Shown here: positions 1 to 42,248 of the stretch, piece by piece
How the letters are laid out: each line of letters opens with the position of its first letter
How positions within the stretch are numbered: the first letter of the stretch is position 1
NCBI GenBank assembly: GCA_026387335.1
Contig: JAPLLX010000004.1
Location: 189,485-253,484 of the forward strand
Source: Candidatus Omnitrophota bacterium
GTDB lineage: Bacteria > Omnitrophota > Gorgyraeia > Gygaellales > Profunditerraquicolaceae
DNA length: 64,000 nucleotides
Direction: 5' to 3'
Program-made: the position numbers and the translations under genes
The notes under the pieces: generated by a model
The model's input: the letters and a program-made list of their open reading frames with translations, nothing else
Databases searched by the model: none
Told to the model about the DNA's origin: nothing

Positions 1-3000
1 TTCTATTATATTTAATATTGCCATGTCAAGCGCCTTATTGGCCGAGCTGGAGGAAGATTCTTCTAAAGTTTCTTTAATGGAATTTAATGTCTGAATATAT
101 ATTCCGTCCACCTTCACCGGACTTGTATCTGAATGGAATAACCTTGCAAGCCCTCTATACATTGTCTTGATTGTCTTCTTACTCGCGTCAGGCTCAAGAC
201 CAAGCGCCTTTGATGCTTCAGCCTTTCGGGCTTCTGCTGAGAGCTTAGTTATCCCTAGAAAATCAAACTCCTCTAAATTCTTCTTTATGCGCGCCGTTTC
301 TGCTAATACCTCACTTGCCTGTTTTGTTATAGTAATAACCTCTATACCGTCAATAGTTTCTGTAATAGCTTCTCCGGATGCATACTTAACTAGTCTCCCT
401 TGACTATTATATGTTACATTAACCGAGCTGGAGGCGGCGGGACTGGAAGAAGTCCAGGTAAATTTGATAATTTTCAGCCCTAACGCAACTCTGATATTTT
501 CGATAGTCTCAAGATACTCACCGCCGGCTTGAACAAATATGTCCTGATAAATGCCATTATGGTCTTCTTCGGAAGTATGCTCCTTTAATAAATCCATAAA
601 CTTACCTAAGTATTTCTCTTCGCTTACTTTTTTACCGCGCCTTAATGCCTCGGCCTGGTTCCCGGCCCTTTCAAATATGCCTCTAAATTTATTGTGCTTT
701 TCTTTATGTTCATCCTTAAACACGAGAACTTCATCGGGAGAGACAATAATGCTTTGACGGTTGAGAGTACTGTACAAATCTTCTAAAGAAAGCTCTCCGT
801 TCGAGGTGTGAAAATGCAATAGAATGCTCCCCGGGATATTCTTAATAACAACGCCATCTTCCTCCCCTATAGCCCCAATCTTAAGGTGCCAGCCATCCTT
901 GCCTAAATAACAATAATCAGCGCCTAATTCCAGGTTGCGATTTACCCGGGCAATCTCCATTAAATATTTAACTAACGATTTAAAATCCTTGAAGACTTTA
1001 TCTTCTTTGGTGAATATCGCCGGGTCTGCCTTGCGTAATGCTTCAATAGTAGGCTGGATCCTCTCATGCCTGCCGTGTATGTGATATATGGCAGTAAACG
1101 CACTGATAACAAGCAAAGCGACTACAGTAACAATCTTGAGCCAATAAGTCTTGCTGGACTTTTTAATCGGGCTGGAGAAGACCGGACTGGAGCCAACCGT
1201 AAGGGACGGCTCTCTGACTGAACCGTCCCTGTTCTTAGTTGTGCGTGCCGTTGACTTTGTAGATGGGAACACATCCCCTTGCATCGCTAATCTTGACACG
1301 GATGAGCTCGCTCTTAACGCCGATGATCTCCTCCCAACTATCGGCACGGCCGTTGCGCGTGTAGATAGTTCCCATAACATCGTTAATGAGGAAGATCCTG
1401 AGATGACCGCTGGCGTTCTCACGAGCTGCGGCAAAAGTAGTGTGGTCCTTGGCGAAGTCAACAATGTGATCAATCCTAATATCATCAACATTGATAGGAC
1501 ACATGGTACACCTCCTTCTATTATTGTTGTAATGGCGGCAACAAGAGGGGTCAATCCCTGGAGGAGGGCTCCTGCGCCGCCATTAACAACAACATAGGCC
1601 GCAAGCTCTCCTGCCACGGAAAAAGCTAACGGCCGGGTTAAATTTATAAGATTATTTATATCGGAATTTGTAAAGGATAAGACGAGTAATAAGGAAATAA
1701 CTACTGCGGAATTGAGCAGTATAGCTATTAAGGCTGCACAAGGCGGAGAAAGCCCGTTGTAACCTTTGGCGTGATTACTGACTGGTTTGACGAATCTAGC
1801 TTCTAATAATCTTAATGAGGGAGTTTCGGTTCTATAATGCCCCTGTCCTCTAAGCTCATTTGAATAGCTCTTAAGCGACGAGCGGCTAATTCTTCCCTCA
1901 AATACTCTGATTCGATCCTTTTCATTTCTTCCTGAAATTTCAACATTAGGTTTCCCATTTTTCCCTCCTCCAATTATGACCCTGTACATTTGAATCAAGA
2001 AGTTGCTCACAGATGCAGCAATGCGGGCTAATGGAGGAGCGAGGGAAAGATTGGTGACGCCTACGCCGGTTTCTTTCGGCTGGGCTGTTATTGAAGCTTC
2101 TAACCTGAAATAGCTGCGGCCTTTTTCAAGGATATTCCTTAATGTGCCTAAGAATGAAGTGGTGACTAATTTGTTAATAGGCGAGCTGGATACTGTTACA
2201 GTTTCTATGGGTATGTTGGCAGAGACTGGTAATTCCCTGACCGGAGAAGAACCGCCATTTGCTTTACCAGGATTAATTTGATTGGCAAAGTTCGTTGCTT
2301 CAGATGTAATCTTTGAAGAACATCCAGCTATCTTAACCTCAATTTCGTATAATTTGTTATTCAACTCAAGGGCTTGCTTAATAAGAGCTGCTTTGGATTC
2401 TTCAGAGATTACTGCATTAGTTAATTGATCCTTAACCTCAAGGGAATACTTAATAAGTATGCCTTCAACTTTCTGATATGTGGCGAGCGCCTTAAAATAT
2501 TCTTCAGCGTCATATTCACTATTCCCTAAGATAAGTAAATCGTTAGCGGTAGAGAAAAGATCTTTGCTTGCTGTTGCATTCACAGGATCTTGTTTATTTT
2601 CTGCGGTTACTTCAGCCTGAACCCCTGCGTTATCTTTTGCAGAAACATGGCCTTTTTCATCCACTATCTTCTCATCTTTAATTCCTTCTACATTAGCCTT
2701 ATCCGCAGCTTCCGGAGTTTTCTTGGCATCCTCTGTAACTTTCTTCGTAACTGTTTCTTTTGCTAATCTATCTCTCTCTTCGGCTGCTTTACGTTCAGCT
2801 TCTTGCTGAGTAGCGAGTTTGGCTGCTTCTTCAGCTGCTTTGCGTACTTTTTCTGCCCTATGATTAAGATAAATCTTAACTGCTATGAGGCCGAGAATAA
2901 TAATTGCCACAATAGCAATAGCCCAGATCATCTTGGGGTTGGTAGTAAAATAGTCTAAAATTTTGCTTAAAATTGATTCTTCGCCTTTAGGGGCTTGGGG

Positions 3001-6000
3001 CGCAGGAGGAACGCCAGGAACTGTTAATATCTTAGAAACATCAATCTGCTGGCCGGCATTAATGTGATCCATCGCGCTATAGGACTGATTTGCGCCTTTA
3101 ACCTGTCTCCAAGTTTCAATTGCCCGGCCTTTTTCACCCCATAATTTCATGCCTGATTTGCCAAAATACTCTAATACTATATGGCCCCAGGTATCGCCTT
3201 TTCCTACGGTAAGAATATTATTCGCTGCGGTAGCGGCAAATGACTGGATAGGAAGAACTAGAGAGACAAATAGGAAAATTCCGGCTGTAAGATATGCGTT
3301 GCTTATATTAGAAAGGATGTTTTTAATATTTACTGCAGAGCTCGAGCTAAGAATAACTGTTGGAGGAGCAAGGCCACTGACTCTCTTTCTATCTTCACTA
3401 ATAATATTCAACCAATCTACTATTCCGTAAGCTTCGCTTGCTCCATTTGTGAGGTTAAAATTCGCAGCTTCCGGCCCTTCACCAAAGCCACCCTTACCTT
3501 TACCTGTACCTTTTGGACCAGCAGCTGCTCCGCCATTACCTGCCGCAGCACCAGTTCCAGTTCCACCCTGCGCTGATCCGCCGCCGCTGGAACCATTTAG
3601 CTCTTGAATATAACCAATGACACCAGAAACCTCATCCATTTCTTCTTTCTTAATTTCTCTAATATCTTTGTCATCTAAATTATTTTCTTTCTTATAATTT
3701 TCTACTGCAGAAACGTTGTTCCAATGAATTATGCTCACAATTTTTCCATTGTAAAGAGCTACGCTTTCTATAGAAACCGGTCTTGTCTCGGTAACTTCTC
3801 CTTTATTATTATATTCTGTAACCATCAAATCTCCATTGGCGTATTTCCCTCTAACAAGAAAAGCATGTCCACTTTGAACAACTATAAGATTCAAGTTACC
3901 CAGGGTATTAGAATCCATAGACTCTATAATCTTTGGAGATAATAAATAATACTGCAATCTACCTTTTGCAATCTGGTTTAATTCGTTCAATAATAAACCT
4001 CTTCCTAGCTTTCTTTCCGCCTCTTCTATTTCTGCTGCCAATACAGAATCTACGGTATAAAAACTTCCAGGTAAACAATCGGCTGGTTGAATACCTCTCT
4101 TTCCTTCTGCTATTCTCAAACGGCCATCAAAACCTTGAATAATACCTTCTACTGCGCGAAGAACGCTTTTATCTCCGTCATCGATTGCTTTCCTTAAATT
4201 TACAATTTCCTCCCCCTGGTCATTTACCTTAGTACTTAATCCCCTTACTTCTTCTTTTACTACACCTTGCATCTTAGAGAAAAATCCTGCTAACTCTTCT
4301 TTCGCTTTCTTATGAGTTCTTTCATTATTCTCTTCTAGTTCTTGTATTTCCTTGCGCACAATCTTCTGCACTGCTGCTACTATATTCCCGTTTGCAATTC
4401 CATTAAATAATTCGCGGATTATTTCTTCCGACAGGCCTTCTTGTAATTCCGGATGTAACTGCGCGGTTTTCACATAATTAGCAATAATACTTAAACCTAT
4501 TACGTATCTATTCGTTATATCTTCATCAGTAATGCTGTTCACTGTTGTATCCTCGAAATATGAATCATTAAACCATCTCATTAATACTGCTTTCAAGTGT
4601 GGGATATTATCTTCTACGTTCATAATTCCCTTAACCGCTGACCTTATTAAGCCATACATTTCACTTCTCGCTTTTTCAAAGTCGCGATCCTGTATTGCTC
4701 TAAGAACCGTGCCATAGGCGGTTGGGTCTTTTTGCCTTAAACCTTCCAGCATCATACGGTCATCCTTGTTATTGCGGAAATAATCCTGGCCTAACAAGCG
4801 ATTTAATAACTTAATTGCTTTTTCTAAATCTGTTATTGTACTATTATTTGCGGGAGAAGATGAGGTTTTGGTGGGAATTCCAGAGACAAAAACGCCGCTA
4901 TTGAGCGGACTTGAGGTTGCACGAATCGAACCACTGGTTTCTTTATTTGCACTCTGGGAACCTGCCAAACTCTTAAATTCATTTGCTTCAATTACGCCTA
5001 ATTTATACGCTCTGATGTCCTTGACACCAACAAACTTTGAGTCAGAGTTCGTCGGTGAGCTGGCAGGCGGCGCAACGCCGGTTCCGGTTCCAACAACTGG
5101 ATTAGGAGTAGCAATCGTATTGAATTGTATGACTTTACCGGCATAGAGTAGGCTTGCCGGGCTTAAATCTAAGGCTGTTAAGGCTCTGGTAACCGAACTG
5201 GAAGCGCCTACACCGCTAACCACAGTTCCAGCCACTGGCAAAGGCATTGGTGACCGCCTTTCTAAAGGCGAAGTAGTCTGATCTGGCTTCTGTCCACCCA
5301 ACATTCTTGCTACAGCCCCAAATAATCTATTTACAATCTTACCTATATACTCTAATGCCGCGCCGGTTTCTGCAATCGACGAAGAGACAATCCTTGCGCC
5401 GGTTAAAGCGCTCAATGCGCCGGCTAATATCTGCACTTTGGCATTAGGGCCGCTAATTGAACTTGATCCACCGGTATTATCGTTCACTGCGGCCTTCTCT
5501 TCCACTGGAGCAGCCGTATCCATCTGTTTCTTCATCTTTTCCAATAAATCATTCAGCTTTAAGTCTACTAGTGATTTTTCTTCAGTAACATCAGAATGAA
5601 TCTTGCCCAACAACTCACCTTTCTTAAATAGTTCTGTAATGTCATTTAAAACCTTATCCACTGTCTGCTCTGTCTTTAGAACTTTATTGGCATGCCCGGT
5701 AAATCCACCAAGGGTTGTGGATTCTGTCGCTAATAAATTCTGTCTTTCTGTATCTTCGGCAGAATTTAAAGAATTAATGAGGGCACGCATACTTAAGAAA
5801 CGCGTTAATCCTTCATTAACGCCTAACTCTGAAATGCTAAAGTCTGATTCACTGAGCTCTCTATTTTCAAGGGTGCCCATTTCGGCAAGCAAATTAGCGT
5901 AATTCTGTTGAGCTGTAACAGTGGCTTCCGCATCAATATCCCTACCGTTAGGGCTTAAAATAACGATATTACTGGGATTACTACCAATATTCTTTACGGC

Positions 6001-9000
6001 GATATGGAATGCCTCATGCGCGCCTCTGCCGAAATTATAATGGCCAGCGAGATTCAACCTAATAGAAAGCTTACCTTGGGCATCTTTCGTAATAACAAAA
6101 TTATCTACGCTATCAGCTTTTATTGTGTAATTCTTTTCTCCTACCGAAGGTTCATATACTTGGGCGCTTGTATTCTTAGTTTTATCCGGCCCACGCAAAA
6201 ATCCGGAAGGACCTATTTCAACCTGAACACCTTCATATCCCTTATCCTTGCCGTACCAATTGCTTCCCATTTCTTTTTCTACAGCAGTGCTTCCTTGTGC
6301 CTTAAATTCCTGCTCAGCAATAAAGGTTTGGGCTGGCTGTAATGCCCTAAAAACAAGATAGAGCGAAGCATCGTCAGTTAACCCGTTAAGTATTTTGAGG
6401 GAATTGTCTAAGCGGGCATCATCAGGATTCGCAGATTGAATATTATTAATGAATTCTAAGGCCTGCTGGCGGGTAAACAAGCTTGAACCATTGCCTAAAA
6501 GCCGGCTGGCTATATCCGGGCCTAATAAACGGAAGAATGCATTTTCATGCTCTTGAGGATTGATTAATATATCCTCAAATTTCACATTCTCCTGGCCTTG
6601 GGATGTTCTTTGAGCAACCAAAGCATTTTCAGCATCATTGAACCTTAAGCCGTACTCAAATTGAGGATTAATACCCAACTTTCTAAGCCCTGTATGAATA
6701 TCCTTACTATTAACTAAATTTTTGTTTTTGAGAGTCTCAACGACCAACGCATATTGAACAGTCTTACCTGAAGTACTGTTTAAAAGTTCACGGAAAGCGG
6801 CCGCGACATTTTCTATTTCTTTCGGTGGAAGGCCTAAACGCTGCGCTTCCTGCTGGGGATTATCAACAAAACGTCTTAATACGTCGCGCTTAACAACGCC
6901 CTGAGTCTGCATAAATGTATTCATTAAATCTGCTGCCTGACGGGTTGCCGCGTTTGTAGAGGTGGCAAATAACTGTCCGCGGGCCAAAGGATCAGAATTC
7001 AAGAATAAGTAGTCGGCTATGCTTAATCTCCCTAAAACCTTAGAAGATATCCCTGAAAGATTCAATTGCCTATAAGCTTCAACCTGTGTAGGCCCAAGCG
7101 GTAAAACTAACGGCATTAAATCTATTAAAGACTGCGTTTTGCCCATAGCCACAGCTACCTGCTGAAGGCCGCCCATGGTCCGCTTGTCTTTAAATATACT
7201 GCTATGGCGCTGGGCATTAAATTTAATCAACGCGCTTTCCAAAGAGCTATTGCCTTTTTGCAGATTGCGTGTTAAGAATTCTACGGGATTATCCAAGCCA
7301 AGCTGTAATCTCTCCACCTCTGTGGGTGTAAAAGCTGTGCCGGCTAATTTATCCGCAGCAAGCGAAGTTAATGTAGCAACTCTTACTATAGAATCTACCC
7401 CGCGATAAGGATTAGAAACATCAATATAACCTCTCTGGGCTAAATTTACAGCAAGATCGAATGATTGTTCAGGGGTGATCAATATGTCGGCTTCCGGCAA
7501 TGCTAATTCCGGTAAACCAATGCGATTTAAGAATACATTCACTTCTTTGCGTTCTCTTTCATCCCAAAGCTGCACTGTTTGCATAGCGAGATTAAGACCG
7601 CCTCTTCCAACCATATACCCGCCGCGCACAAACAAGGCTTGTGTCTCAGCAGGAAGATTATTGAACTTTTCCGCTAAAGCAGGCTGCCCCTTGGCAAAAT
7701 TCTCAAAAGTCACAGGGCCAAGTTCTTCGCTGGGTACGGCGGAAGGAACCCCTCTCTTTTCTCCGCGAACAGTAACTCCATACTCCATGTTAGCCGACGT
7801 AAATTTAGGATAATCCTTTCCTGTAAATTCTTTTGCAAAAATAGCTCTAACCTGTTCGGGAGTCAATTGTTTATAGGCTGGTTTACCCTCATATTCATTT
7901 TTTAACTCTGCGCGTAAGGCTTTTTCTATCTTTGAATACGCATCGCGAAAAAGAATAAATTCATCAACAATAGCCTTGGCTTTCATTTCCTGCGCAGTCT
8001 TTGGTTTTTCAGGATACAGTTCCCTTAAATCTCCCTGCCCCCATTGATCACGCAGGAATTTCATACCATGATCTCTTTCGGTATCCAAATGCTCAACAGT
8101 CAAATCTGCCTGTCCGCGGACATTTTGTAACTGGCGCACAGAATCATTGCCTTGTTCTAATCTATTTACTTGGGCAATTTTCTCCATTGCCTTTGGCCCA
8201 AGCAAAGAGCCAAGCAATAAATTAATCTTGAATTTCGCGTCCCTGATTAAATCTCTTTCTTTATGAAGAAGATCTTGTTTATCCGCCTGGTCTTGATTTT
8301 TACCAAAAAGCTTTTCTAATTCTTTTACGCCTTCCAGGCTCTTAACATCTACACCGCTTAAGTCGCGAACAATAAGAACACGGTCAACTGAATCAAAATC
8401 AGAACCGGAAACAGGCCTTAACCTGCGAGAACCCTGAAAAATCGGCAAAAGCTCGCTCTTGGAATCAGCAATAGCAACTAATACAGCCTTATCGGAAACG
8501 CCGTTTATATCAATACCGTATGTATTAGGACGGGATATTAATACTTTAACACCCTTTCCGGACGCAATTTGTTCTGTTACATATTCAATCGGGCTATTGT
8601 TTCTGCCGCTATTTTTAATTACTTCTGAAACTGGCTTTGCGTCCTTTAATTCTCTACCGACTTCTACCATTTGCCAAATTCCGCGCTGATCAAGAATAAA
8701 ACGGGTGTTATCTTTATAAAACGCGCTAAAATCTCCTATGGAAAGCTGAGAATCACCATGCTGCTCGCTCTTCTGCGTATCTACATAGATAGTTACATCT
8801 TTACCTTTATTAGATGTCTCTTTGCTGCCTAACTCAAAAATTGCGTTATTATTAACGTTATTCACCCCGACTACATTTAAATTTGCATCAAGGATTGGCT
8901 TACTCACTTCACCTACTGAATCCATGCCAAAAACTATTCTCATCGTATCCTTCTGCCGATCGGTCATTGCTCCGGCAAAAAGTACAGTAGCTACCGCGCC

Positions 9001-12000
9001 CATTTTTTCTGCTGTATCCAACATCTTCGCGAAAGAAACCATGGCATGGCCAGCTCCCTGAATCTCAACTTGTTCGTAATTAAGAGGAATTTCGACATTC
9101 TCTGGTCTTGATGTATCACGTACCCTGGCATTATGAATCACAACATCGGCAATAGCCTGTAAGCTGTTGGCAACGCGTAAATCATGCGCGCGGCCGCTGG
9201 GATTAAGCGGGATTATAACCCACTTATTACGTTCGGCATCAAAAGCAGTAAGTTTATCTAAGCCGGTAACTTCTGCTCTGGCCACCATAGACGCTTTCAA
9301 CGCAGCTACGAGACGCTCTCCTTCAGGAGTTTTCCTCAGTGCATCTAAATCCAATCTTTCTTGCTCTAATTTTTCTCCCGCGCTATACCTTAAAAATGCT
9401 TCGATTAACGCATCGTTACCGGCAGGATCAACTATAGTTTCTCCGTCTTTATCTCTGCTGCGGGTAATCTCGTATTTATCATCTAAACTTTTTAAGGAAA
9501 GTTCGCCATTAAGTGTTTCTGTTAAGAACTTGTGCGCCCTTTCAACTAAGGCTTTTTGAGAATCAAATTCTTCTTTGCTTATTTTGTCAAATCCATCGCT
9601 AATTTGAAGAGAAGGATTATCCAAATAATCCGTATTGGTAAGCACCGCTTTATCTAATAATTCTGTCAGGGCTTTATCGTGCGCGGATAATTGCTCTCTG
9701 GGCATTTCACGTAAACCCATTAGATACTGTAAATCGTGTTCGGATACAATAACCGCACTTTTATCCGCAAAATTTATAGCCGGTTGGTCGCTATCTTTAA
9801 CTCTCCAGCGGACTATACGGTCTGCATCTACAATTGATTTCGCGAAAGCATTTCCTTTCTCGGCTGCCCTTCTTACATCACCCATAGTTTTATCGTAAAC
9901 CTGATCAGCATGTGTATCGCTTTGCTCAACAACAACTAACATTTTTGCTTTAGGACCATAGGTACCGTTTTGTATAAGCCCTAACTCGGCAATAATACCG
10001 GCGGTACTCTTGCCTGCTGAAGGAGGAGCAAAAATTGATAAGACTAAAGGTTTAACAGAACCAGCGACATAGCGGGCTCCCAAAACCATTTTTTCAAGCA
10101 TATTAGCCTGATCTTTATCCTTAACTCCTCCATATATATTTATTACCGGGTCTGCAGCTACATTATAATAATCTGACTTTATGCGCGTTTCCGCAGCCCG
10201 CTTAATTTCAGGAGTAACTTCAAAACTATTAACCCTTCTGCCCAAGAAACCATCTCTATAAAATACCTTGCTACCTTCTTTAGCATAAGCAACCTGTCCT
10301 ACAATAAGAGAGTCAATCTTCCCTGTAGCTGTAACTTCTGCAGCTTTATCTACCGGAATTATACGCTCTGAGGCGCCTGGTTTCATCCAATCAGGACGAA
10401 CATTTGACTTAGCCTCTTCCGGAGAAATTATAGTAGCGCGGCCGCGCTTAGTGAGCATCTCTGTTATTCCGCCAAAAATAGAACGCTCGTTTTTACTCAT
10501 TACAGGCGCAGCTGCAGGAACCCTAAAGAATCCTGCCCACTGTATAAACTCACTTTCAGGTGTACTGAATACGGCGCGGTCTTTAGGTGTTAAACCATTA
10601 CCATCAATTAAATTGCTTAAGGAGGCTAAAGAATATTTACCTGTATTACCAAAATAATTTACGGATTCTTTTAATCCAGTAACTACGCCGGGCATAAAAA
10701 CGCCTAAAGACCACGCATGATTTAAGGTTTCATTGGAGAACGGCTTTTGAATACTTAACGCTGCATTCTCACTTATCGAAAGTTTTTCAGAAGCCCTTGT
10801 TTGTAGAATACCTATCGCGGGAGCCATCCAGACACCAGAACGCGGGCCATAAACAAAACTGGATAATAATTCTGTCTGTCCTTGCTTAGAAGAGAATAAA
10901 TCTACATACTCACCTTTTACAATATTATTACTCGCATCTCTCTTCTCTATGGCAAACCAGGGCACGGATGGTTTCCCGTCTATGGCATGCTCCATATTAA
11001 CAAGGGCGCCACGCCATAAAGCGCCACTGACAGTAAATGACGGGCTAACATATAACCATGTTAAAGCGCCTCTGACAGAAGAATTAAATAACTTGGTCGG
11101 AACGGAATACAGAGCCTGTAAAGAAAAATCGCGTTCAGCCATATACCCGGCTCTTGAGGTAGGAGAAAATATATTCTTGGTTGTTCCCAGATAAGAAGCA
11201 GCTAACGTGCCAATTGCCGCTCCACCAAAGACACTTGCTACGGCCTGTCCAAAAGTATAATTATTTCCAGACCTATACGCGTCTAAAGAATCATGGGTAA
11301 GCTTAATCCCTGCTCCGGTAATAGCCCCATACTCTGCCCTCGCCAAATTTAAACCTGCTGGCGTAGCAGCGGGAAGACCTTTTATTCCTAACCCGATCAG
11401 GCCTCCGGTAAGCACATTAACCCAAGTATAGCTACTCTGAATATTATCTAAGAGATAACCTTCCCCAGACATTGTTTTTAGCCCAGTGGAAAGTAACGGT
11501 AGGCTGACTGCTCCTAAGGCAAAAGAGGTACCATAACGGACTATACTGCTTTCAGTATTAATTCTAAGCGCTGTACTCAAATTATTAATAGTATTTTTTA
11601 TAATTCCGCCATTAGCTACTAACGCGCCTGCGCCAGTCAAAGCTAAACCAAACGCAGCGCCATCACGCAAACCTTCTCCGTAGATACCAAGCCCTTCTCC
11701 AAAACTTAATGCCCTTGCCGTACCGGTTTCATTTAATCCCACAAGATTACCAATAACAGCAGTAGTTAGATTTATCTGGCCCCATAGAGGAGCTTGAGTT
11801 CCCATCGCATATCCAACCTTGGCTAAAAATGGACTGGCCAAAGTAGCCCCTTCGACAATCAAAGATGAGAGAACCTTTGACGCTACAGGAGTAGCTAATC
11901 CAGCAATGGCAAGCAAAGCATTTGTTTCTCGCGGTAGAAATTCACCAGTTGTGCACAGAGAAACAACGTTTGGTACTACTAAGGTAACTACTTCGGAAAT

Positions 12001-15000
12001 CGTATATGGATTTGCTAATAAATTTATAGCGGCTTTCCCTGCTTGACTCTCAACTCCAAATCTTGCGGCTAAACGCGAACCTAAAGAAGGGGCAATTTCT
12101 TTTGCTGTAGCTACTACACCTCTCCCTAAAGAACCTACTGGATAACCCAACATAGCCCAGAATAATGCATCCTTTGCCAGATCTCCCCCGGATGCCTGTA
12201 TCTCGCCGTTAAGCAACTGGTCTCTTTGTTTAATAAGGTTATCGGCTTTCTCCCATAAACGGTTTCTCCAATAATTTGGTTCTGCCCCTAGCCATTCATT
12301 CGGTTTATCTATAAGATAAGCTAAAGGCGCGCCTAATATATCTATCATTGCAGCATACCCGCTGGAGCCCGCTTTAAGATAATTCTTAATTTTACCCTCA
12401 GAGGTATCCTCTAGGGGAATTGAAATTCCGGCAATACTAAGCTTACCTTTAAATTCTTCTCCTTCAATGGCTTTATTGAGATTGTTGATAGCGGTATTTA
12501 ATTTTTCTCCATTCACACCGGGATCAAACCTGGAATCGCCTGTATCATTATGAATTTTTGTGATTCGTTGTAGCACTGCGCTTCTTTGCGCGTCACTATG
12601 CTGTTGATAAATATCCGCTACCCATTTTTCAAAACCTGCAAAATTAGAAGGTAAGGTAGCTATTTTACCCGAACGATAATCATCAACCCATTGATTCCAA
12701 CCCAATTTTTTAGCATTTTCTTGATAATACTCAGAATAGGATGTAGTATTTTCTTTGTCTGTTTTATTTAAAGCGTCAACGCGGGTTAATAATTCGGCTT
12801 TCTTAATAACTGCCTTTTGTTCATCATTAAGCTTACCCTTAACATAAACTTCTTCAGTTAATCCTGCTTTTTCAGCTTCTGCTTTATTAAACCCCTTAAG
12901 CTGGCTGATATCGTAAAACCCAATTTTCTTAGAATAAGTGCGCATATACTCAGCCAGGCCTGTTTTGCTGTTCAAATCAGCTATATCTGATTTAATTTCA
13001 TCTTCTGTTGCCCATCCTTTATTTACCAGGTCTTGCATAAAGGCTATCCTTACTTTATCATCCTGGGGACGAGCCTTAAAATTAAGGAAGGCGTCAATTG
13101 CAATCGCGCTATTCAAAAGTTTGCTTGTGCCATTAAAATCTTCTTTATCAAGCGATTTCCGCGCTTTCTCTAAAAGGCCTTTAATTTTTTCGTCTTTTTT
13201 AGTCTCGTTTGATTTTTCTAATTCCTTCAGCGGCTTCTCTAAATTCTCCCTCATTTCCTTCTTTGTAACAAATTTCTCTTTGCCATCCTCCTTCGTAAAA
13301 TAAACTTCTTCACTAGTCTTTAACGAATAGTTCTTTTGGCTCATCTCATTCTTAGAAGGCTGGCCGTTAGGAAAATCAATCGTTCCCGAAGCCTTAGTGG
13401 ATTGAAGATAAGTTATACTGGCTACTCCTTTTTTCTCATCCGTGCTTAAAGACCAGGGCATCTTAAATCCCTTAGGAGCGGCATAAGCTAAACCTTCAGC
13501 CTGAGTAATAACCTTGTATTGCACATCGCCGTTAATACCCACGCCCAACATTACCGGAACGGAACTCTCTTCAGAAGGAAGAATAACTGCCCCTAATCTA
13601 TCTTTGACTTTTACCACCTGGGTTTCGCCTTTTTCGCCCAAGACAAAATATTTATCTTTATTCAGCGCGGCATCGGTTTTCTGACCCCAAATGCCATCTG
13701 TTTTTACTTTTAAGTCCGCCTGTAATTTCTCTACCGCTGTTTTATACAGCGGATCTTTATCGCCTTTTATAACAGCGGCTTTATCTAAATAACCTTTCTC
13801 CTTTAAAATACCTACCTTATCCTTAAAGGCTTTATCAGCTGTTGACCCTTCCATACCTTCATTCATAAACGGCAAGGCCTTAATTAAAAGAGCTGGGCGC
13901 GCTATGCCGTCTTCCTTATTCACCAGCAGCTCTTGGCCGATAATCGGCGATGTGCCTACCCCTGCTTTTCCTCCGTCTTTCACATTAGTCAAAGCCCAGA
14001 TAACTTGATGCCTGTCCTGCAATTCAGAATCAAATAAAATCTTATCTTTCGGAGTAACCCAATTCCATACGCCGGCCTTATCCTTTTCCTGAACCGCGTA
14101 ATTAGCGAAAGATGAAACGATATGCAGAACGCCGGCTTTGCTGCCTACTCCATTAATAATAATTCTATCTTTATTCTTGGTATCTATTTTGCTACCCGGC
14201 TCAGAATCTTTCAGGTAAGGTTTGGCGAGAAAAGTTTCGGTGAGTTGGCCAACGCCTTCAATTTCACCATTTGCCTTAAAGGAAATCTCCGCCTCTTTTT
14301 GATTATAGTTAGCGCCTATCCAATGAAGGTTTACATGGCTAATCTTGCCGTCCGGGCCTAAATTTATTGCCACATTACGAAGCAGACTCATACCATCAGG
14401 GAAATCTAAACCCGCGACTATAACTCTCCCCTTAGAAACATCTACATTATCGTAAATGACTACTTTACTTGCAGGGTCAATAAGGTTATATTTCTTGGTT
14501 TTTTGGTCTTGCACTAATTTATAAACGCCTTCATATGTCTCCACAGTCTTATCTTTATTAATCTCATAGGATTTGGAGGTCCTGGCGCCGCTATACTTTA
14601 TCCCCTGCGCTTCGGTAACCAGGTCAAATTTAAATTTATCCTCCTTATCAAAATCCATACCCGTCAATATTCCGCTTTTACTAAAATATACCGGGCCGGT
14701 TGGATTTTGCTGATAACGTTCATGATCTATTTCATAAGTAAAGTCTCTGGATAATTTAGGGAGAGACTCGGAATTATTTTGAACTCTTAGTTCGTTTTTA
14801 CTGTCATCCCAGGGAACAGAAATAATATCTTTTCCCGCCTGATCCTTAGCCACAGTTACTTTAACCTTTTTCTCCTTATCATTATCATTAATAAGGTAGC
14901 TCTCTTTTACTCCGTCTTTAGTTGATTCTTGTAATTTCCAACCTTCTAGAGGACCATTTTTCTCATATAAAGAAGCGCTATTCTCAAGGCCACGGGATAG

Positions 15001-18000
15001 TGAAGGATTAACTGCGCCGGAAAAAACTAAAGGAGCTGGACCGCCCCAATGCTGGATAGGCCTGATATTAAATTCTTTGCTCGTTGCAGCGTCTGTTCCC
15101 TTGAACGCTAACTGGCCGACTAAAGGTGAGTTGCCTTTTAAAACTACTTCGGAGGTATCTTTACCTGTTTGCCTGGCTACTTCCCAATCAAGACTATGCC
15201 CCTTTTGCACAGCATTCCCAAAGATTACCTCATCGGGAATTTCATTTCCGATTCTATACGCAGCCCAAGAACTTATAATATAGCTAACGCCGTTACTGAG
15301 AAACTCTTTAAGTTTTTCGGCTGAGTTTATATTCTTGATTTCCCCTATTAGTTTAGCCTGAAGCCGGGAGTCTTTTATCTTCCCGCCTTTTGCATCAGTA
15401 AACTCTCCTTTTTCTGCTGCTTCTATTAATACAGTCTTACCTGTTTCAAAATCTTTGTCTATCTTCTTTATTAACTCCGGGTTAAAGTATAATCTTTCTG
15501 TTATTTTCTCCTTGAGATATGTTTCCGAAAGCGTACTATCATTTACGCCAATTGTAAGAATACCTTTATTCTCTTTGTCGCCTCCCGGCCTTATGCCTAA
15601 AGAATTAAAAGTAATGCTTCCGTCTTTATGCACAGAGTAAGAAGTAACCAGGCGCGTATTCCTATCTCCTTCTGCAATCGGAGTATTATCGCCTTTTGAG
15701 TTATCTCGGACCATCTCAAATCCGTTTTCTCCCGACCATTTTGCTCCTTTGGCAAAATTAAGGCTGCTTAAATCCAACCCTACAATATTACCATTCTGGT
15801 GATCAATGTTGGCCACCCAGCCGCCAAAACCCCTGGCAGTAGTCATGGGTATTTTGTTAGAATCTTGAAAAGAACCTGCTCTTGTTAACGCTACCATATC
15901 AGTCTGCGGAGATTCTTTCCCCTCGCCGCCGGCTTTGGGCGTTGGTATAATTAAGTCTCCGTTTACAAGCAAAACAGGGTTGCCGCCAAACTCACCTAAG
16001 TCATAAATAGTGCCTTTTGTCTTTGCAACTATTGATTTATTATCAAACAGTGCGCTGAGAACGTCTTGCTTAGGGACTGGAGTCATAAGAGATTCGCCAC
16101 CTAGTTTACTTTCTAGAAAGTTATCAGCAGGCTTAGAAGACATAATTTCCTGTCTATAACGCTGCTCATATTCTCCCCGGGCATAAGAAAGCTTGGCATC
16201 AAAAGTCTGCTTGCCAAGCACATCAAAGGTGTATAGATAATCTAACTGTCTTAATGTAAGGTCGTTCTCAACGCCGTTTACATCTTTAATTTTTTCAAAC
16301 TTCTTGGTGTCGCCGGGATTAATTATTTCTTTTATAAAAGCTCCGTCGCCGTAAAAATTACCGTCGCCAATGGTAATCTCTCCGGATTGTTCTTTTCGAT
16401 GTCCCAGATACGTGCTGCTATCAAAACGCACGCCCGTATATTTGTCGGCGTAATAAGCCTGGCCTTTTATATTGTCTTTACCCCTAATTGCAAATTCCGG
16501 CACTTTCCATTGAGCGCCCTTGGCATAGTTTAAAGAATTAGGATCTAAACTTAACTGGCCGTCTTTATTATGCACCAAAACCCCTACGGTCCCGGTCATC
16601 TTGTTAACTTCGGCTGACGCGGATTCAACATTCACTACCACACCAGACCCAGGCCCATAAAGGCTCTTAGCATAATCTAAGAATGGCGATCCTGCGTTCT
16701 TTACAACCCAAGTTAACCACTTTTCTGTTTCAGTTGCTTCAACACCCGCCGCCGGCCCAGAATTTTGTAGAGATGTTTTAAATTTTTTGGCCCTATCAAG
16801 ATAATCAGCAGCAGGATAGCTATCTTCCGACAGCTTTTTATTTCCTGCTTGATCTCGGGGTTTAGAATTGGCATTAGTATTATAAGCACTAGTCTCTGGA
16901 AGCAGCAGCTTTAAGCTAACGCTCTCATCGATATTAGAGCTAATGGATATATTCTTCTTTATGAAATCCTTATTTGCTTGTGAGTCATATTTATTAGAAA
17001 GCGGGTTACCGTTAAATTCACTGCGATACCCTGAAACATACTCCACAATATCCTTTTCGTTAAAATATTGATATAAGCCTGTATCTCCCCATAAAACTGC
17101 CGGAACCATCTTGATGTTAATAGTAGAAGTAATGCCTGATTCCTTAGCCTTGATTACCGTAGGAAAGAAGGTCGGATAGATTATGTCCCTGCCTAAGCCG
17201 ACCAGGTTATTTACTGAGGCAAAATGCAAGGTAGACTTGGCGTAATTAACTAAAGAATAAGAGGCGGAAGGTAAAAGCGAGCTGAGGTTCCCATCATCAA
17301 TGAACTTACCCCAGTCAGTATAACCTTTTTGTTTCATTAAATAATCGGCATTGGCTTTGAAATCAGAGGTTCCGGCAAGCTGGGCAATCTTTTCTATATA
17401 TTGAATTTCAGACCAGCCGCCTGCGCCTTTGGTGTATACCGGAGAGGTGCCGCCTAAAGAAACATAATTGGTGGCGAATTCTTCAAATCGCTTATTAAAT
17501 AATCTTCCTGCATACCCTGCCCAAGATTTTTCGCCTAATTCTGCAGTTGATTTATTCGCAGCGATAATTGTGCCGGCTGCAGAATAAAGAGTGGCTGTTC
17601 CTAACCAGTTAACCCCCTCCATTTGTAATCGGGTCAGGCCCCATTTATTCTTATCTGTAACTTTATCAAAATCTCCGCCTAAAGCATTCAGCCCGGCTGA
17701 AACGCCGCCGGATAGAAGGCCGTTAAAAGCCGCTTGATCCCAAGTCAGTTTGTTGGCATTTGCTCCGGCTATGCCTCCTAAGGGCTCGCCTAATAAACGG
17801 CTATAATTAGGATGTTTCTTAAGCTCGCTGCCAAACACTCCCTGAGAAGCAGCATATTCAACAGCCAAACCTACGCCCTGAGAGATTAAAGAACCTTTCA
17901 TATCCTGTAGGGCATATAGAGCGCCCTGATAAGCTGTCGAAGGAGCCACGTAGGCGGAAGATTTTCCTCCTTCTTGAATAATATTTCCGGATATATTCTT

Positions 18001-19551: not shown

Positions 19552-19715
19552 TTTATTTTTATATTACTATATACATAAAATGCAAAATAAAAGTTCCCCT
19601 TTACCCCATTACTCTTTTTAGCTTGCGAGTGAGAGTCTTTCATATTTTGTTTTATAAAGCGTTTGTAAAATCCCTTACTAAGCTTCTAAAAAGAAAAACC
19701 GAACTGTCAAATTTC

Positions 19716-24425: not shown

Positions 24426-24587
24426 CTATTTACTGTATTGCCGGCCAAAACCAAAATTATCCCCGGCATCCCGCCATTTTCCGCTTAAAGAGCGCTGGAA
24501 ATAAAGCGCCATTCCGATTAATGCCGCTATGACTATCGCTATTAGAAGCGCATATTCCAGGGATAGAAAACCAGTTTTTTTATTCAT
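24426..24587 (-). CDS. flp: Flp-type pilin (53 aa), MNKKTGFLSLEYALLIAIVIAALIGMALYFQRSLSGKWRDAGDNFGFGRQYSK
   Basis: Unlisted (under 60 aa). G/FLSLEY processing motif with E+5/Y+6, then a hydrophobic helix. ATGAATAA overlap with the stop of the upstream gene. Confidence 0.7.
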   Translation of the reverse strand: MNKKTGFLSLEYALLIAIVIAALIGMALYFQRSLSGKWRDAGDNFGFGRQYSK

Positions 24588-40751: not shown

Positions 40752-40771
40752 GGAATTTTATTTTAATAAAT

Positions 40772-42244: not shown

Positions 42245-42248
42245 ATAT

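What the first reader, a model, noticed from the sequence alone, without database searches (positions are those of the whole stretch)
2880..4140. LysM domain sandwiched between TM helices, Gly-rich linker and a second papain-like Cys/His module
Translation gives ...DCLPGSFYTVDSV...(about 70 aa)...SGHAFLVRGKYANGDLMVTEYN... (Cys/His/Asx spacing of papain-fold hydrolases). It continues with ...GGGSAQGGTGTGAAAGNGGAAGPKGTGKGKGGFG... (flexible linker), then TM (TAGIFLFVSLVLPIQSF), then GKGDTWGHIVLEYFGKSGMKLWGEKGRAIETWRQVKGANQSYSAMDHINAGQQIDVSKI (LysM-like, peptidoglycan binding), then TM (MIWAIAIVAIIILGLIAV), then a KAAEEAAK-rich charged region. A peptidoglycan-binding module next to a hydrolase-like module deep inside a giant membrane protein is unusual.
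Basis: partly seen in the sequence, partly recalled or inferred. Interest (0 to 1): 0.65.

Follow-up and report, generated by a model that had tools for sequence, protein, structure and literature searches.

The report
Protease-like and LysM-like cassette in giant protein
Inside a giant (>6,500-residue) membrane protein of an Omnitrophota-type bacterium sits a conserved cassette: a hidden papain-like protease domain on the predicted cytoplasmic side, then an internal export signal that places a very divergent LysM-like domain in the periplasm. It looks like a junction where the giant precursor may be cut and anchored to the cell wall, not a cell-wall hydrolase.

Summary
The gene is a typical Omnitrophota giant gene: N-terminal signal plus Pfam C39, a Tad/T2SS locus upstream, and relatives found only in Omnitrophota MAGs.

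The positive-inside rule in 7/7 relatives puts the LysM-like loop in the periplasm and the protease module in the cytoplasm, so they are not a binding-plus-hydrolase pair. The first hydrophobic segment looks like an internal signal peptide with a conserved S-F-A|A site.

I also found a recurring xSSP junction motif, often followed by Tat, lipoprotein or Sec signals, which suggests a polyprotein.

The parts
1..19551 (-). Giant gene (partial). Start ATG at 19551; >6,517 aa; the C-terminus runs off the window start.
   Evidence: Stop-free frame 1..19563. Relatives are also embedded in stop-free giant frames: L002 is 7,020 codons, and L001, L003 and L004 are fully open.
18775..19005 (-). N-terminal bona fide Peptidase_C39 domain (the 'first' papain-like module). 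It follows an N-terminal signal-like segment (res 5-53, nt 19405-19551).
   Evidence: Pfam PF03412, 31.7 bits against a cut-off of 22. phmmer hit to the 6mpz double-glycine protease, E 0.0019.
3697..4122 (-). Second papain-like (C39-like) Cys/His module, res 5148-5289. Predicted cytoplasmic.
4075..4077 (-). Codon of the candidate catalytic Cys5163 (DCLPGS).
   Evidence: Invariant in alignment A1. A Cys is present in this segment in 8/8 members. It falls in the low-confidence part of the model, residues 1-20.
3865..3867 (-). Codon of the candidate catalytic His5233 (GHAFLV). An [EDNQ]-x-[NS] motif follows 17-19 residues later (E5250/N5252).
   Evidence: Invariant in 8/8 members. The His-to-third-residue spacing is close to the +16 of papain and C39 enzymes (that spacing is from my own knowledge).
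3619..3666 (-). Acidic amphipathic stretch DIREIKKEEMDEVSGV. It resembles the helix of double-glycine leader peptides (L-S-x-x-E-L-x-x-I-x-G-G).
   Evidence: Aligned [LIVF]-[STK]-x-x-[ED]-[LVMA]-x-x-[LIV] pattern in the seven cassette members printed, and in L003 (LTQGEVEEF). P0002 reads VSNDNLEDIEGA. The resemblance to leader peptides is inference only; no HMM supports it.
3475..3594 (-). Gly-rich flexible linker, res 5324-5363, with 10 G-[GAS] dipeptides from the linker to just downstream.
   Evidence: Conserved in all relatives, including several invariant Gly columns.
3334..3378 (-). SGLAPP motif followed by a degenerate junction motif (LSSSSA). Relatives have SSSP or TSSP here.
   Evidence: Alignment. 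L003, the closest relative, has SSSPAVNIRNIF at this point.
3235..3294 (-). First hydrophobic segment, res 5424-5443. It reads as an internal signal-peptide-like segment or anchor with a conserved P-x-Q-S-F-A|A end, which looks like a signal peptidase I site.
   Evidence: Kyte-Doolittle mean 1.95. The Ala at -1 is kept in all eight sequences compared and a small residue at -3 in all; S-[FY]-A holds in seven, with A-V-A in P0005. 100% identical to L003. Its c-region resembles that of the protein's own N-terminal signal (FLPEQAAQA|VE).
3022..3225 (-). Divergent LysM-like domain, res 5447-5514. Predicted periplasmic.
2983..3024 (-). Pro-rich linker (TVPGVPPAPQAPKG).
   Evidence: Read directly from the sequence; variable Pro-rich linkers occupy this position in relatives.
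2872..2931 (-). Second transmembrane helix, res 5545-5564. Predicted N-out, C-in.
   Evidence: Kyte-Doolittle mean 2.84. The C-terminal flank carries 4-7 K/R per 20 residues, against 1-3 in the N-terminal flank, in 7/7 members.
2455..2871 (-). Cytoplasmic K/E/A-rich charged region (res 5565-5638 onward), followed by a TPR-like stretch at res 5675-5703.
   Evidence: Read from the sequence. The tails of the relatives give sub-threshold TPR-type hits such as MamA and PilW.
4852..4863 (-). SSSP junction motif at res 4901, the nearest intact one upstream of the cassette.
   Evidence: The [AGST]SSP motif occurs 7 times in the giant ORF, against 0.43 expected.
2242..2253 (-). GSSP junction motif at res 5771, the nearest one downstream. 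It is conserved in P0001, P0007 and L002.

Best explanation
The interval is a conserved junction cassette inside an Omnitrophota-type giant membrane protein.

Upstream half. This is a fast-evolving, Pfam-invisible papain-like (C39-like) cysteine peptidase domain with a conserved Cys/His pair. I predict it lies in the cytoplasm. An acidic, leader-like helix and a Gly-rich linker follow it.

Downstream half. This is a strongly conserved export-and-anchor unit, in this order:
- an internal signal-peptide-like hydrophobic segment ending in a conserved S-F-A|A motif;
- a small, divergent LysM-like beta-alpha-alpha-beta domain displayed in the periplasm;
- a Pro-rich linker;
- a true TM helix;
- a cytoplasmic charged coil with a TPR-like tail.

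Proposed mechanism.
1. The hydrophobic segment starts translocation of the LysM-like domain. Signal peptidase I may cut after SFA.
2. The LysM-like domain binds the cell's own peptidoglycan, or another periplasmic glycan or partner. This tethers that part of the giant protein at the envelope, next to the Tad/T2SS-like machine encoded upstream. The arrangement resembles FimV.
3. The Cys/His peptidase cuts the precursor, either at Gly-Gly-type sites in the linker beside it or at the recurring xSSP junctions. The giant ORF would then behave as a polyprotein.

What is shown and what is inferred. Shown: the modules, their order, their conservation, the papain-like fold at moderate confidence, and the distant LysM-like profile similarity. 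Inferred: the topology (positive-inside rule), catalysis, the cleavage sites and the ligand.
For: Giant ORF and lineage.
- The frame is stop-free over 19.5 kb.
- It has an N-terminal signal followed by a Pfam C39 domain.
- Upstream on the same strand lie RcpC, a secretin, a TadZ-like/TadA-like ATPase, TadB/C, a Rotamase_2 PPIase and an OprB porin. This matches the synteny described for Omnitrophota giant genes (Tad).
- The two genome-collection relatives are both Omnitrophota MAGs. Of the three metagenome loci, two are the source contigs of sequences already in hand and one has no taxon label.

Peptidase module.
- Cys is present and His invariant in 8/8 members at 16-23% identity.
- The Foldseek top hit is a papain-like cysteine protease, probability 0.97.

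LysM-like module.
- The hhalign global score is 15.7, against a shuffle mean of 3.1 (sd 2.4); 0/300 shuffles reach it. For the local score, 3/300 do.
- The alignment covers all 42 LysM columns.
- The predicted element order is beta-alpha-alpha-beta.
- One family member reaches Pfam LysM E 0.059, the best family for that set.
- Three Trp are conserved (GDTWG, LWG, ETW); the second and third are invariant and the first is Phe in P0005.

Topology.
- The TM-b C-flank has 4-7 K/R against 1-3 in its N-flank, in 7/7 members.
- No hydrophobic segment lies between res 2570 and 5421.

Two separate units.
- Identity to the closest relative, L003, steps from 18-22% (coiled coil, Cys/His module, leader-like helix) to 62-100% (linker through TM-b), then falls to 31%.

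Junction idea.
- The xSSP motif is enriched about 30-fold.
- Both RRxF[LIV]K twin-arginine motifs in 25.6 k residues lie 3-4 residues after an SSSP.
- Lipoboxes and the starts of REC and glycosyltransferase domains also follow the motif.
- The closest relative has an intact SSSP just before this cassette's signal-like segment.
- Omnitrophota genomes encode intact peptidoglycan synthesis (abstract quoted).
Against: - No HMM (Pfam or NCBIfam) recognises either module in the window.
- Profile searches against PDB sequences find neither LysM nor C39.
- hhalign of the Cys/His profile against the protein's own N-terminal C39 domain is not significant (P 0.53), although Cys-Cys and His-His are co-linear.
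- The catalytic Cys sits in the low-confidence part of the model, residues 1-20 with pLDDT<50. I could not measure Cys-His proximity.
- The hallmark Asn at the end of LysM helix 2 is Lys in the window. It is Asn only in P0003.
- The two insertions fall in the loops that form the LysM glycan groove.
- The topology rests on the positive-inside rule alone. Published TM predictions for these proteins are reported as unreliable.
- The junction motif right before this cassette is degenerate in the window (SSSS-A).
- The Gly-Gly right after the leader-like helix is not conserved.
- No cleavage has been observed.
- FimV models do not match.
Confidence: 0.5

Rival explanations
1. The two modules work together as a cell-wall enzyme: a LysM peptidoglycan-binding domain targets an adjacent NlpC/P60- or CHAP-type Cys/His peptidoglycan hydrolase, used against the bacterium's own or prey walls.
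For: - NlpC/P60 and CHAP enzymes are papain-like and are often fused to LysM (LytE 8i2e and 4uz2/4xcm).
- Giant Omnitrophota proteins are proposed to degrade prey cell walls.
- A weak PG_binding_1-like motif lies elsewhere in the protein.
Against: - A hydrophobic segment lies between the two modules, and the basic flank of TM-b places them on opposite sides of the membrane in 7/7 relatives.
- C39-type peptidases outrank NlpC/P60 by about 2 Z units.
- No NlpC/P60, CHAP or amidase HMM hit appears in any of 6 members.
- The two modules evolve at very different rates, 22% against 88% identity to L003. That fits separate units better than a co-adapted enzyme and anchor.
Confidence: 0.08
2. The Cys/His module is a papain-like toxin or effector domain, similar to CdiA-CT or T6SS papain-like toxins or to AvrRpt2. 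It would be released from the giant protein and act on prey proteins, not process the giant protein itself.
For: - The Foldseek top hit is a 'papain-like cysteine protease toxin/immunity pair' (9l5u; E 0.011, probability 0.97).
- The module evolves very fast, 16-23% identity between relatives whose neighbouring unit is up to 88% identical. This pattern is typical of arms-race effectors.
- The lineage is proposed to be predatory.
Against: - It is predicted to lie on the cytoplasmic side, with no export signal of its own directly upstream.
- No adjacent immunity-like unit was identified.
- The conserved leader-like helix and Gly-rich linker directly downstream suit a processing role.
Confidence: 0.15
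3. The LysM-like stretch is not a glycan-binding LysM. It is a lineage-specific small periplasmic helical domain, for example a protein-protein adaptor for the Tad/T2SS-like apparatus. Its similarity to LysM is either convergent or confined to the GDT-x-x-x-I turn.
For: - Pfam LysM is not matched.
- The default hhalign alignment covers only 15-16 columns, with probability 6-8%.
- The model is low-confidence, and non-LysM hits rank above the LysM hit.
- The LysM Asn is replaced by Lys in the window and in most relatives; only P0003 keeps Asn.
- The 9- and 8-residue insertions fall in the groove-forming loops.
- The module also occurs without TM helices in an 893-residue HEAT-repeat protein, P0006.
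Against: - The global profile alignment is co-linear over all 42 LysM columns and beats 300/300 column shuffles.
- The structure-based alignment to the AtlA LysM is 33% identical over 40 residues.
- The best Pfam family for any member is LysM.
- The conserved Trp residues and the predicted periplasmic location fit glycan binding.
Confidence: 0.3
4. The Cys/His module is a non-catalytic C39-like domain. It would act as a binding or chaperone module, like the C39-like domain of HlyB, and hold part of the giant protein during export.
For: - The oxyanion-hole Gln upstream of the Cys is not consistently placed: Q at -3 to -5 in 4 of the 7 members compared.
- The third catalytic residue varies (E/D/N/Q).
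Against: - The C39-like domain of HlyB lacks the catalytic Cys (from my own knowledge). Here Cys and His are the only residues kept in 8/8 very divergent members. That pattern is expected for catalytic residues, not for a binding scaffold.
Confidence: 0.12

Closest known systems
Omnitrophota giant proteins ('Archaeovorin'-type; West-Roberts et al. 2023, bioRxiv 10.1101/2023.11.21.568195; Seymour et al. 2023, PMC10066038)
   Same: - A huge single ORF with an N-terminal signal followed by a C39 peptidase.
- Several TM segments and few recognisable domains.
- Located next to T2SS/Tad-like genes (rcpC, secretin, ATPase, T2SSF) and a Rotamase_2 PPIase.
- Relatives found only in Omnitrophota MAGs.
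   Different: - No Pfam SecA_DEAD hit in this protein; only a Walker A motif at res 3179-3187.
- The internal Pfam-invisible papain-like module, the LysM-like unit and the xSSP junction motif are not mentioned in either paper checked.
Peptidase C39 / double-glycine peptidase domains of PCAT-type ABC exporters (PCAT1, ComA, LahT-like 6mpz)
   Same: - Cys...His...acidic/amide order with similar spacing.
- Predicted cytoplasmic.
- A leader-like acidic amphipathic helix and G-[GAS] dipeptides lie right next to it.
   Different: - No sequence-level match to PF03412 or NCBIfam C39 models.
- Not fused to an ABC transporter.
- The putative substrate lies in cis, downstream in the same polypeptide.
- The Gly-Gly at the canonical position is not conserved.
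LysM domain (PF01476), e.g. E. faecalis AtlA (2mkx), E. coli MltD (1e0g), B. subtilis LytE (8i2e)
   Same: - G-D-[TS]-x-x-x-I start, an AGQ-x-I-x-V end and a helix-2 'I-E-x-W-x-x-x-x-G' stretch, all co-linear with LysM.
- Predicted beta-alpha-alpha-beta order.
- Predicted extracytoplasmic.
   Different: - About 60 residues instead of about 44, with two insertions of 8-9 residues in the loops.
- Lys replaces the conserved Asn.
- Below all family thresholds.
FimV/HubP/TspA-type pilus-associated peptidoglycan anchors (architecture recalled from my own knowledge)
   Same: - Signal or anchor, periplasmic LysM-type domain, one TM helix, then a long highly charged cytoplasmic region with TPR-like elements.
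- Encoded in an organism and locus with a secretin-based pilus/secretion machine.
   Different: - No match to the NCBIfam FimV models.
- Here the unit is embedded in a giant ORF, not encoded as a separate gene.
- The functional link to the Tad secretin is untested.
Self-processing giant toxins and polyproteins: MARTX and TcdA/B with internal cysteine protease domains; flavivirus/HCV polyproteins cut by their own proteases and by host signal peptidase at internal signal sequences (from my own knowledge)
   Same: - An internal Cys protease within a multi-unit giant precursor.
- Internal signal-like segments with A-x-A-type sites.
- Units that carry their own targeting signals.
   Different: - The protease fold differs (clan CA C39-like here, clan CD C80 in MARTX).
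- No evidence of cleavage yet.
- This is a bacterial chromosomal gene, not a toxin or a virus.

Membership tests
LysM (Pfam PF01476) | Match to the family HMM at or above the gathering score | tested here: not met
   The window segment has no LysM hit at E<=10. One of 7 family members reaches E 0.059. The profile finds no LysM among PDB sequences.
LysM (Pfam PF01476) | Co-linear profile similarity over the whole ~42-residue domain | tested here: inconclusive
   hhalign aligns 42/42 columns with two insertions. P is 0.0044-0.0048 and probability 3-8%. Column shuffles reach the global score 0/300 times and the local score 3/300 times.
LysM (Pfam PF01476) | beta-alpha-alpha-beta fold that superposes on solved LysM domains | tested here: inconclusive
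   [not shown]
LysM (Pfam PF01476) | Conserved Asn at the end of helix 2 (the L-N-x-L motif) | tested here: not met
   The window has K (RQVKGA), as do most relatives. Only P0003 has N (RQVNGA); P0004 has F.
LysM (Pfam PF01476) | Extracytoplasmic location | tested here: met
   By prediction only. The TM-b C-flank carries 4-7 K/R against 1-3 in its N-flank, in 7/7 members.
LysM (Pfam PF01476) | Binds peptidoglycan or chitin (GlcNAc polymers) | not testable with these tools
   Needs a pull-down or ITC with the purified res 5444-5530 domain.
Peptidase C39 (PF03412), clan CA | Match to the family HMM | tested here: not met
   No C39 hit in any of 6 members or in NCBIfam. hhalign against the protein's own N-terminal C39 gives P 0.53.
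Peptidase C39 (PF03412), clan CA | Papain-like fold | tested here: met
   [not shown]
Peptidase C39 (PF03412), clan CA | Catalytic Cys then His, in that order, conserved | tested here: met
   C5163 and H5233 are 70 residues apart. Cys is present and His invariant in 8/8 members at ~20% identity. Their spatial proximity was not measurable.
Peptidase C39 (PF03412), clan CA | Third residue (Asp/Asn) about 16 residues after the His, and an oxyanion Gln before the Cys | tested here: inconclusive
   An [EDNQ]-x-[NS] motif lies at His+17 to +19 in 8/8 members. Gln lies at Cys-3 to -5 in only 4 of the 7 members compared.
Peptidase C39 (PF03412), clan CA | Cleaves after a double-glycine leader; fused to an ABC exporter | not testable with these tools
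   A leader-like helix and a Gly-rich linker lie adjacent. No ABC domain is adjacent. The activity needs experiment.
NlpC/P60 or CHAP peptidoglycan hydrolases | HMM match, best structural neighbours and extracytoplasmic location | tested here: not met
   [not shown]
Omnitrophota giant-gene class (West-Roberts 2023) | Giant ORF with an N-terminal signal and C39, several TM helices, T2SS/Tad and Rotamase_2 synteny, in the Omnitrophota lineage | tested here: met
   The window's own genome was not identified; the lineage is inferred from the relatives.
Omnitrophota giant-gene class (West-Roberts 2023) | Divergent SecA DEAD helicase domain | tested here: not met
   No Pfam SecA_DEAD hit and no PDB sequence hit for res 3100-3800. 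Only a Walker A motif (APPSAGKST) is present.
FimV/HubP family | Match to the FimV N-terminal or C-terminal NCBIfam models | tested here: not met
   No FimV model among the hits for the unit in the window or in 3 relatives at E<=10. Only the architecture is analogous.

The most novel reading that the evidence does not exclude
Omnitrophota giant ORFs are bacterial polyproteins. They would be strings of once-separate proteins joined by a conserved peptide junction, [AGST]-S-S-P, often preceded by G-L-A-P-P.

Many units keep their own N-terminal Sec, Tat or lipoprotein signals. They would be released by built-in papain-like (C39-like) peptidases together with signal peptidase I.

The cassette in this finding would be one such junction: a protease domain, then a cut site, then an exported LysM-like anchor. 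If so, this gives the first concrete, testable cleavage map for these proteins.
Probability: 0.35. Interest if true: 0.85.

Novelty: new variant of a known kind. Interest (0 to 1): 0.58.

Why it matters
Giant genes of Omnitrophota (up to more than 100,000 codons) are known. Whether their products act as one chain or are cut into pieces is an open question. West-Roberts et al. state that the lack of information on cleavage points blocked a unit-by-unit analysis. A 2026 survey discards internal signal-peptide calls as artefacts.

This cassette supplies three things:
- a second, HMM-invisible cysteine-peptidase-like domain with conserved catalytic residues;
- an internal signal-like segment with a conserved A-x-A-type site, in front of a conserved periplasmic LysM-like domain;
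- a recurrent xSSP junction motif that in relatives directly precedes Tat and lipoprotein signals.

Together these give specific predicted cut sites. They can be checked in existing proteomes by searching for semi-specific or neo-N-terminal peptides, and by simple expression constructs.

If the LysM-like domain binds peptidoglycan, it would also explain how part of such a protein is fixed to the envelope beside the Tad-type machine.

Tried and rejected
- Word-indexed homology search. I ran it three times: the single sequence, the full-region alignment A3 and the LysM-like alignment A2. None gave a hit. The Gly/Ala-rich linker probably saturated the candidate list, or the family is not indexed. 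Only the exhaustive representative search found relatives.
- Pfam and NCBIfam scans of both modules and of all relatives gave nothing above threshold. The weak REC114, MutH, PrkA and TolA hits are noise from charged or helical sequence.
- Profile searches against PDB sequences found no LysM and no C39. The CV39L lectin hit is a repeat artefact.
- hhalign of the Cys/His profile against the N-terminal C39 domain was not significant, P 0.53. BLASTP between the two modules gave E 2.9. The second module is therefore not a recent duplicate of the first.
- Internal repeats: local HMMs show both modules are single-copy in the giant protein.
- FimV membership was rejected at sequence level.
- A SecA_DEAD or ATPase assignment for res 3100-3800, which I wanted as an independent cytoplasmic marker, got no Pfam or PDB support. 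I use it only as a motif-level hint.
- A nucleotide-level signal at the SSSP sites was rejected. The codons vary freely, so the motif acts at the peptide level.
- 'xSSP always precedes a hydrophobic signal' is only weakly true: 10/47 against 5.2 expected, p 0.03. Many units after the motif are cytoplasmic-type domains.
- The AFDB50 fold library was unavailable.
- The variant 'LWNVA' modules in P0007 and P0003 are not detected by the A2 HMM, so I did not count them as members.

Full report
**1. What is at the coordinates**

The interval 2880-4140 holds no long plus-strand gene. It lies on the minus strand inside one stop-free frame that spans window 1..19563 (6,521 codons). The likely start is the ATG at 19551, and the C-terminus runs off the window. 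I number residues in this frame, so residue i corresponds to nt 19563-3(i-1).

- DCLPGS, with C5163 at nt 4075-4077.
- GHAFLV, with H5233 at nt 3865-3867, 70 residues after the Cys.
- A Gly-rich linker, res 5324-5363.
- A hydrophobic segment, YLTAGIFLFVSLVLPIQSFA, res 5424-5443.
- The LysM-like stretch, res 5447-5514.
- A strongly hydrophobic helix, MIWAIAIVAIIILGLIAVKI, res 5545-5564.
- A K/E/A-rich tail.

**2. Context: an Omnitrophota-type giant gene**

The protein starts with a basic n-region, a 13-residue hydrophobic core and an A-Q-A|V site. A domain follows that passes the Pfam Peptidase_C39 threshold (31.7 bits against 22). That domain also hits the double-glycine protease 6mpz by sequence.

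Upstream on the same strand lie:
- a PPIase with Rotamase_2;
- RcpC/CpaB;
- a secretin fused to TonB_C;
- a ParA-like/T2SSE ATPase fusion;
- a TadG-like protein;
- two T2SSF proteins;
- an OprB porin.

West-Roberts et al. describe exactly this for Omnitrophota giant genes: a C39 domain near the N-terminal signal, many TM helices, neighbouring gspD/E/F, rcpC and a Rotamase_2 PPIase, and a suspicion of proteolytic processing. Seymour et al. report Tad systems and giant ORFs across the phylum.

The two genome relatives of the cassette are both Candidatus Omnitrophota MAGs. Three metagenome loci also match. One is new: L003, on a 476-kb contig. The other two are the source contigs of sequences I already had. 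In every case the cassette sits in a stop-free giant frame. I did not find the window's own genome. Its lineage is inferred from these relatives.

**3. Relatives of the cassette**

The word-indexed search found nothing. The exhaustive search found 8 proteins. Seven of them (P0001-P0007) are relatives carrying part or all of the cassette; P0008 (E 3.1e-4) is an unrelated internally repetitive protein. The aligned cassette relatives share this order: coiled coil, Cys/His module, acidic helix, Gly-rich linker, G-L-A-P-P, S-S-S-P, hydrophobic segment ending in P-x-Q-S-F-A|A, LysM-like module, Pro-rich linker, 'PDFFT-HPW', TM helix, basic/charged tail.

**4. The Cys/His module (res 5148-5289)**

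No Pfam or NCBIfam model matches it in any member, and neither does any PDB sequence. Even so:
- Among 6 sequences only 15-21% identical to the window, the invariant columns are C, H and one R. With L002 and L003 added, the His stays invariant and a Cys is present in the same segment in 8/8 members. The R is lost in L002.
- An [EDNQ]-x-[NS] motif follows the His by 17-19 residues in all eight. From my own knowledge, papain and C39 enzymes have Asn or Asp at His+16.
- An AF2 model built from the 6-sequence alignment is of moderate quality: pLDDT 68.9 and pTM 0.63. The first 20 residues, including the Cys, fall below pLDDT 50.
- Foldseek independently ranks a papain-like cysteine protease toxin (9l5u) first, with probability 0.97 but E only 0.011.

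I conclude that this is a papain-like domain, closest to C39, that probably retains a Cys/His active site. It is not a demonstrable member of PF03412.

**5. The LysM-like module (res 5447-5514)**

Evidence against:
- Pfam LysM does not match the window at E<=10.
- The 7-sequence profile finds no PDB sequence.
- Default hhalign against true LysM domains taken from PDB entries 8i2e, 4uz2 and 1e0g aligns only the first 15-16 columns, with probability 6-8%.
- The conserved LysM Asn is Lys here.

Evidence for:
- With a permissive or global setting, the alignment runs through all 42 LysM columns. It needs two insertions, 9 residues after helix 1 and 8 residues before strand 2.
- The global score of 15.7 exceeds all 300 column-shuffled versions of the family alignment (mean 3.1, sd 2.4). 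The local score is reached by 3 of 300. The reversed alignment scores 1.9.
- One family member gives Pfam LysM at E 0.059, the top family for the set.
- The AF2 model is poor (pLDDT 54.5), but its element order is beta-alpha-alpha-(short alpha)-beta.
- Seventeen columns are invariant among seven members. Two of the three conserved Trp are among them; the first is Phe in P0005.

My reading is that this is a LysM-derived or LysM-like domain with two loop insertions. I put that at about 0.6. Its ligand is unknown.

**6. Topology**

- The second helix has 4-7 Lys/Arg in the 20 residues after it and 1-3 in the 20 before it, in all 7 members examined. By the positive-inside rule its C-terminus is cytoplasmic, so the ~100-residue LysM-like loop is periplasmic.
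- The first hydrophobic segment is the only such segment between the loop and the Cys/His module. No other hydrophobic stretch occurs back to res 2570. The protease-like module and the linker are therefore predicted to be cytoplasmic.
- The two modules would then sit on opposite sides of the membrane. This argues against a LysM-plus-hydrolase pair.
- The first segment also looks like a signal peptide and not like a plain TM helix. It has a short hydrophobic core, a Pro, then a small residue at -3 and Ala at -1. The Ala at -1 is kept in all eight sequences compared. The S-[FY]-A form holds in seven, with A-V-A in P0005.
- It is 100% identical to L003 and resembles the protein's own N-terminal signal end, FLPEQAAQA|VE.
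- These are predictions. Published TM calls for such proteins are admitted to be unreliable.

**7. Two units, not one**

Against the closest relative, L003, identity by segment is:

| Segment | Identity to L003 |
|---|---|
| Upstream coiled coil | 18% |
| Cys/His module | 22% |
| Leader-like helix | 21% |
| Gly-rich linker | 62% |
| GLAPP region | 83% |
| Signal-like segment | 100% |
| LysM-like domain | 88% |
| Pro-rich linker | 77% |
| TM-b | 70% |
| Charged tail | 31% |

The conserved core is the exported, anchored unit. The protease-like module evolves very fast but keeps its Cys and His.

**8. A junction motif (outside the finding, but it bears on mechanism)**

- [AGST]-S-S-P occurs 7 times in the last 1,700 residues of the window protein, against 0.43 expected from shuffles. 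It occurs 11 times in L002 against 0.40 expected. Across eight sequences there are 47 sites where about 1.5 are expected.
- Its codons vary freely, so the signal is at the peptide level.
- The sequence that follows often reads like a protein N-terminus:
  - twin-arginine signals ('SSSP VKMDRRGFLKLAG', 'SSSP ATTRRQFIKISL');
  - lipoboxes ('...PLLLAC', '...MLNTC');
  - signal anchors, including the window's res 6124;
  - a REC domain start ('ARILIVDDQ');
  - a glycosyltransferase start.
- Both RRxF[LIV]K motifs in the 25,573 residues lie 3-4 residues after an SSSP, although only 2.9% of residues lie that close to a site.
- Enrichment for a following hydrophobic core is only modest: 10/47 against 5.2 expected.
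- In relatives, the signal-like segment of this cassette is itself preceded by SSSP or TSSP. In the window that site has decayed to SSSS-A.
- Neither Omnitrophota giant-protein paper mentions the motif, LysM or a polyprotein model. One of them removes internal signal-peptide calls on principle.

**9. Mechanism proposed**

Shown: the module order, the conservation, the fold-level assignments and the charge asymmetry.

Inferred:
- The signal-like segment inserts and exports the LysM-like domain, and signal peptidase I may cut after SFA.
- The domain then sits in the periplasm on TM-b and binds peptidoglycan or another envelope component. The charged and TPR-like tail stays in the cytoplasm. This arrangement resembles FimV, but the FimV models do not match.
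- The cytoplasmic C39-like peptidase cuts the precursor. One candidate site is the adjacent linker, which follows a conserved acidic helix matching the L-S-x-x-E-L-x-x-I pattern of double-glycine leaders and holds many G-[GAS] dipeptides. The other candidates are the xSSP junctions.

The last is the least likely.

**10. Verdict**

The papain-like call is supported at fold level. The LysM call is supported only as a distant, sub-threshold similarity. The functional pairing is not supported.

The thing belongs to a known kind, Omnitrophota giant proteins with peptidase domains, but it adds a new variant. That variant is a hidden internal peptidase next to an internal export signal and a LysM-like anchor, and it points to concrete candidate processing sites.

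Noticed in passing
window minus strand, nt 5053-5064, 4906-4917, 4852-4863, 2242-2253, 2179-2190, 1183-1194, 439-450 (res 4834, 4883, 4901, 5771, 5792, 6124, 6372); also L002, L003 and P0001-P0007: The peptide motif [AGST]-S-S-P recurs about 30-fold more often than expected, and only in the C-terminal part of the giant ORFs. It often sits directly before N-terminus-like sequences: Tat signals, lipoboxes, signal anchors, and REC or glycosyltransferase starts. Both RRxF[LIV]K motifs in 25.6 k residues lie 3-4 residues after it. Its codons vary, so it acts at the peptide level. It is not mentioned in the two Omnitrophota giant-protein papers I checked.
   Followed up: partly
window 3361-3378 (-) and res 4831, 5841, 5938; relatives P0001, P0003, P0007, L002: A second short motif, G-L-[AS]-P-P (also 'HGPPA' or 'APP'), often lies 0-10 residues upstream of the xSSP motif. 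Examples are 'GVAPPASSP' and 'GLAPPAGLSATSSP'. It may be part of the same junction signal.
   Followed up: no
window 13654-13785 (-), res 1927-1970: A PG_binding_1-like motif (…LQADLKVKTDGIWGQKTDAAL…) scores 20.3 bits, just under the Pfam cut-off of 23. It would be a second possible peptidoglycan-binding element in the N-terminal part of the giant protein.
   Followed up: partly
window 61-207 (-), res ~6453-6501: A weak DnaJ (J-domain) match (17.9 bits, cut-off 27.8) lies near the end of the visible part of the giant ORF, shortly after an SSSP site at res 6372.
   Followed up: no
window 10003-10029 (-), res 3179-3187: A Walker A-like motif (APPSAGKST) lies where published Omnitrophota giant proteins carry a divergent SecA DEAD domain. 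No Pfam or PDB sequence match was found for res 3100-3800.
   Followed up: partly
window 35575-37233 (-) and 33411-35570 (-): The Tad-type locus has unusual fusions. One protein joins a secretin to a C-terminal TonB_C domain. Another 719-residue protein joins a ParA/MinD-like (TadZ-like) ATPase to a T2SSE (TadA/CpaF-like) ATPase.
   Followed up: no
window 24580-25155, 27591-28619, 31003-32883 (all -): Three ORFs of 191, 342 and 626 residues inside the Tad-like locus have no Pfam match at E<=0.001.
   Followed up: no
L003 (Ga0247842_10000011) against window res 4708-6293: Conservation between the window and its closest relative is mosaic. Blocks of 60-100% identity alternate with 18-31% blocks and one non-homologous replacement (window res 4947-5046 against L003 res 367-616). 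This suggests swapping of units or very uneven selection along the giant ORF.
   Followed up: partly
P0006 (893 aa) res 622-691; P0005 res 464-500 and 698-735: In P0006 the LysM-like module occurs without flanking TM helices, in a smaller HEAT-repeat protein. P0005 carries two near-identical copies of the 'SSP-LFSSLNKLYLTAGIFLF…' signal-like segment, and only the first is followed by the LysM-like module.
   Followed up: no
window 39528-43184 (+): A divergently oriented FIST sensor, histidine kinase and REC-GGDEF response regulator operon lies next to the Tad/giant-gene cluster. Relatives of the giant ORF carry REC and GGDEF units inside the ORF itself (P0001 res 1610-1990).
   Followed up: no
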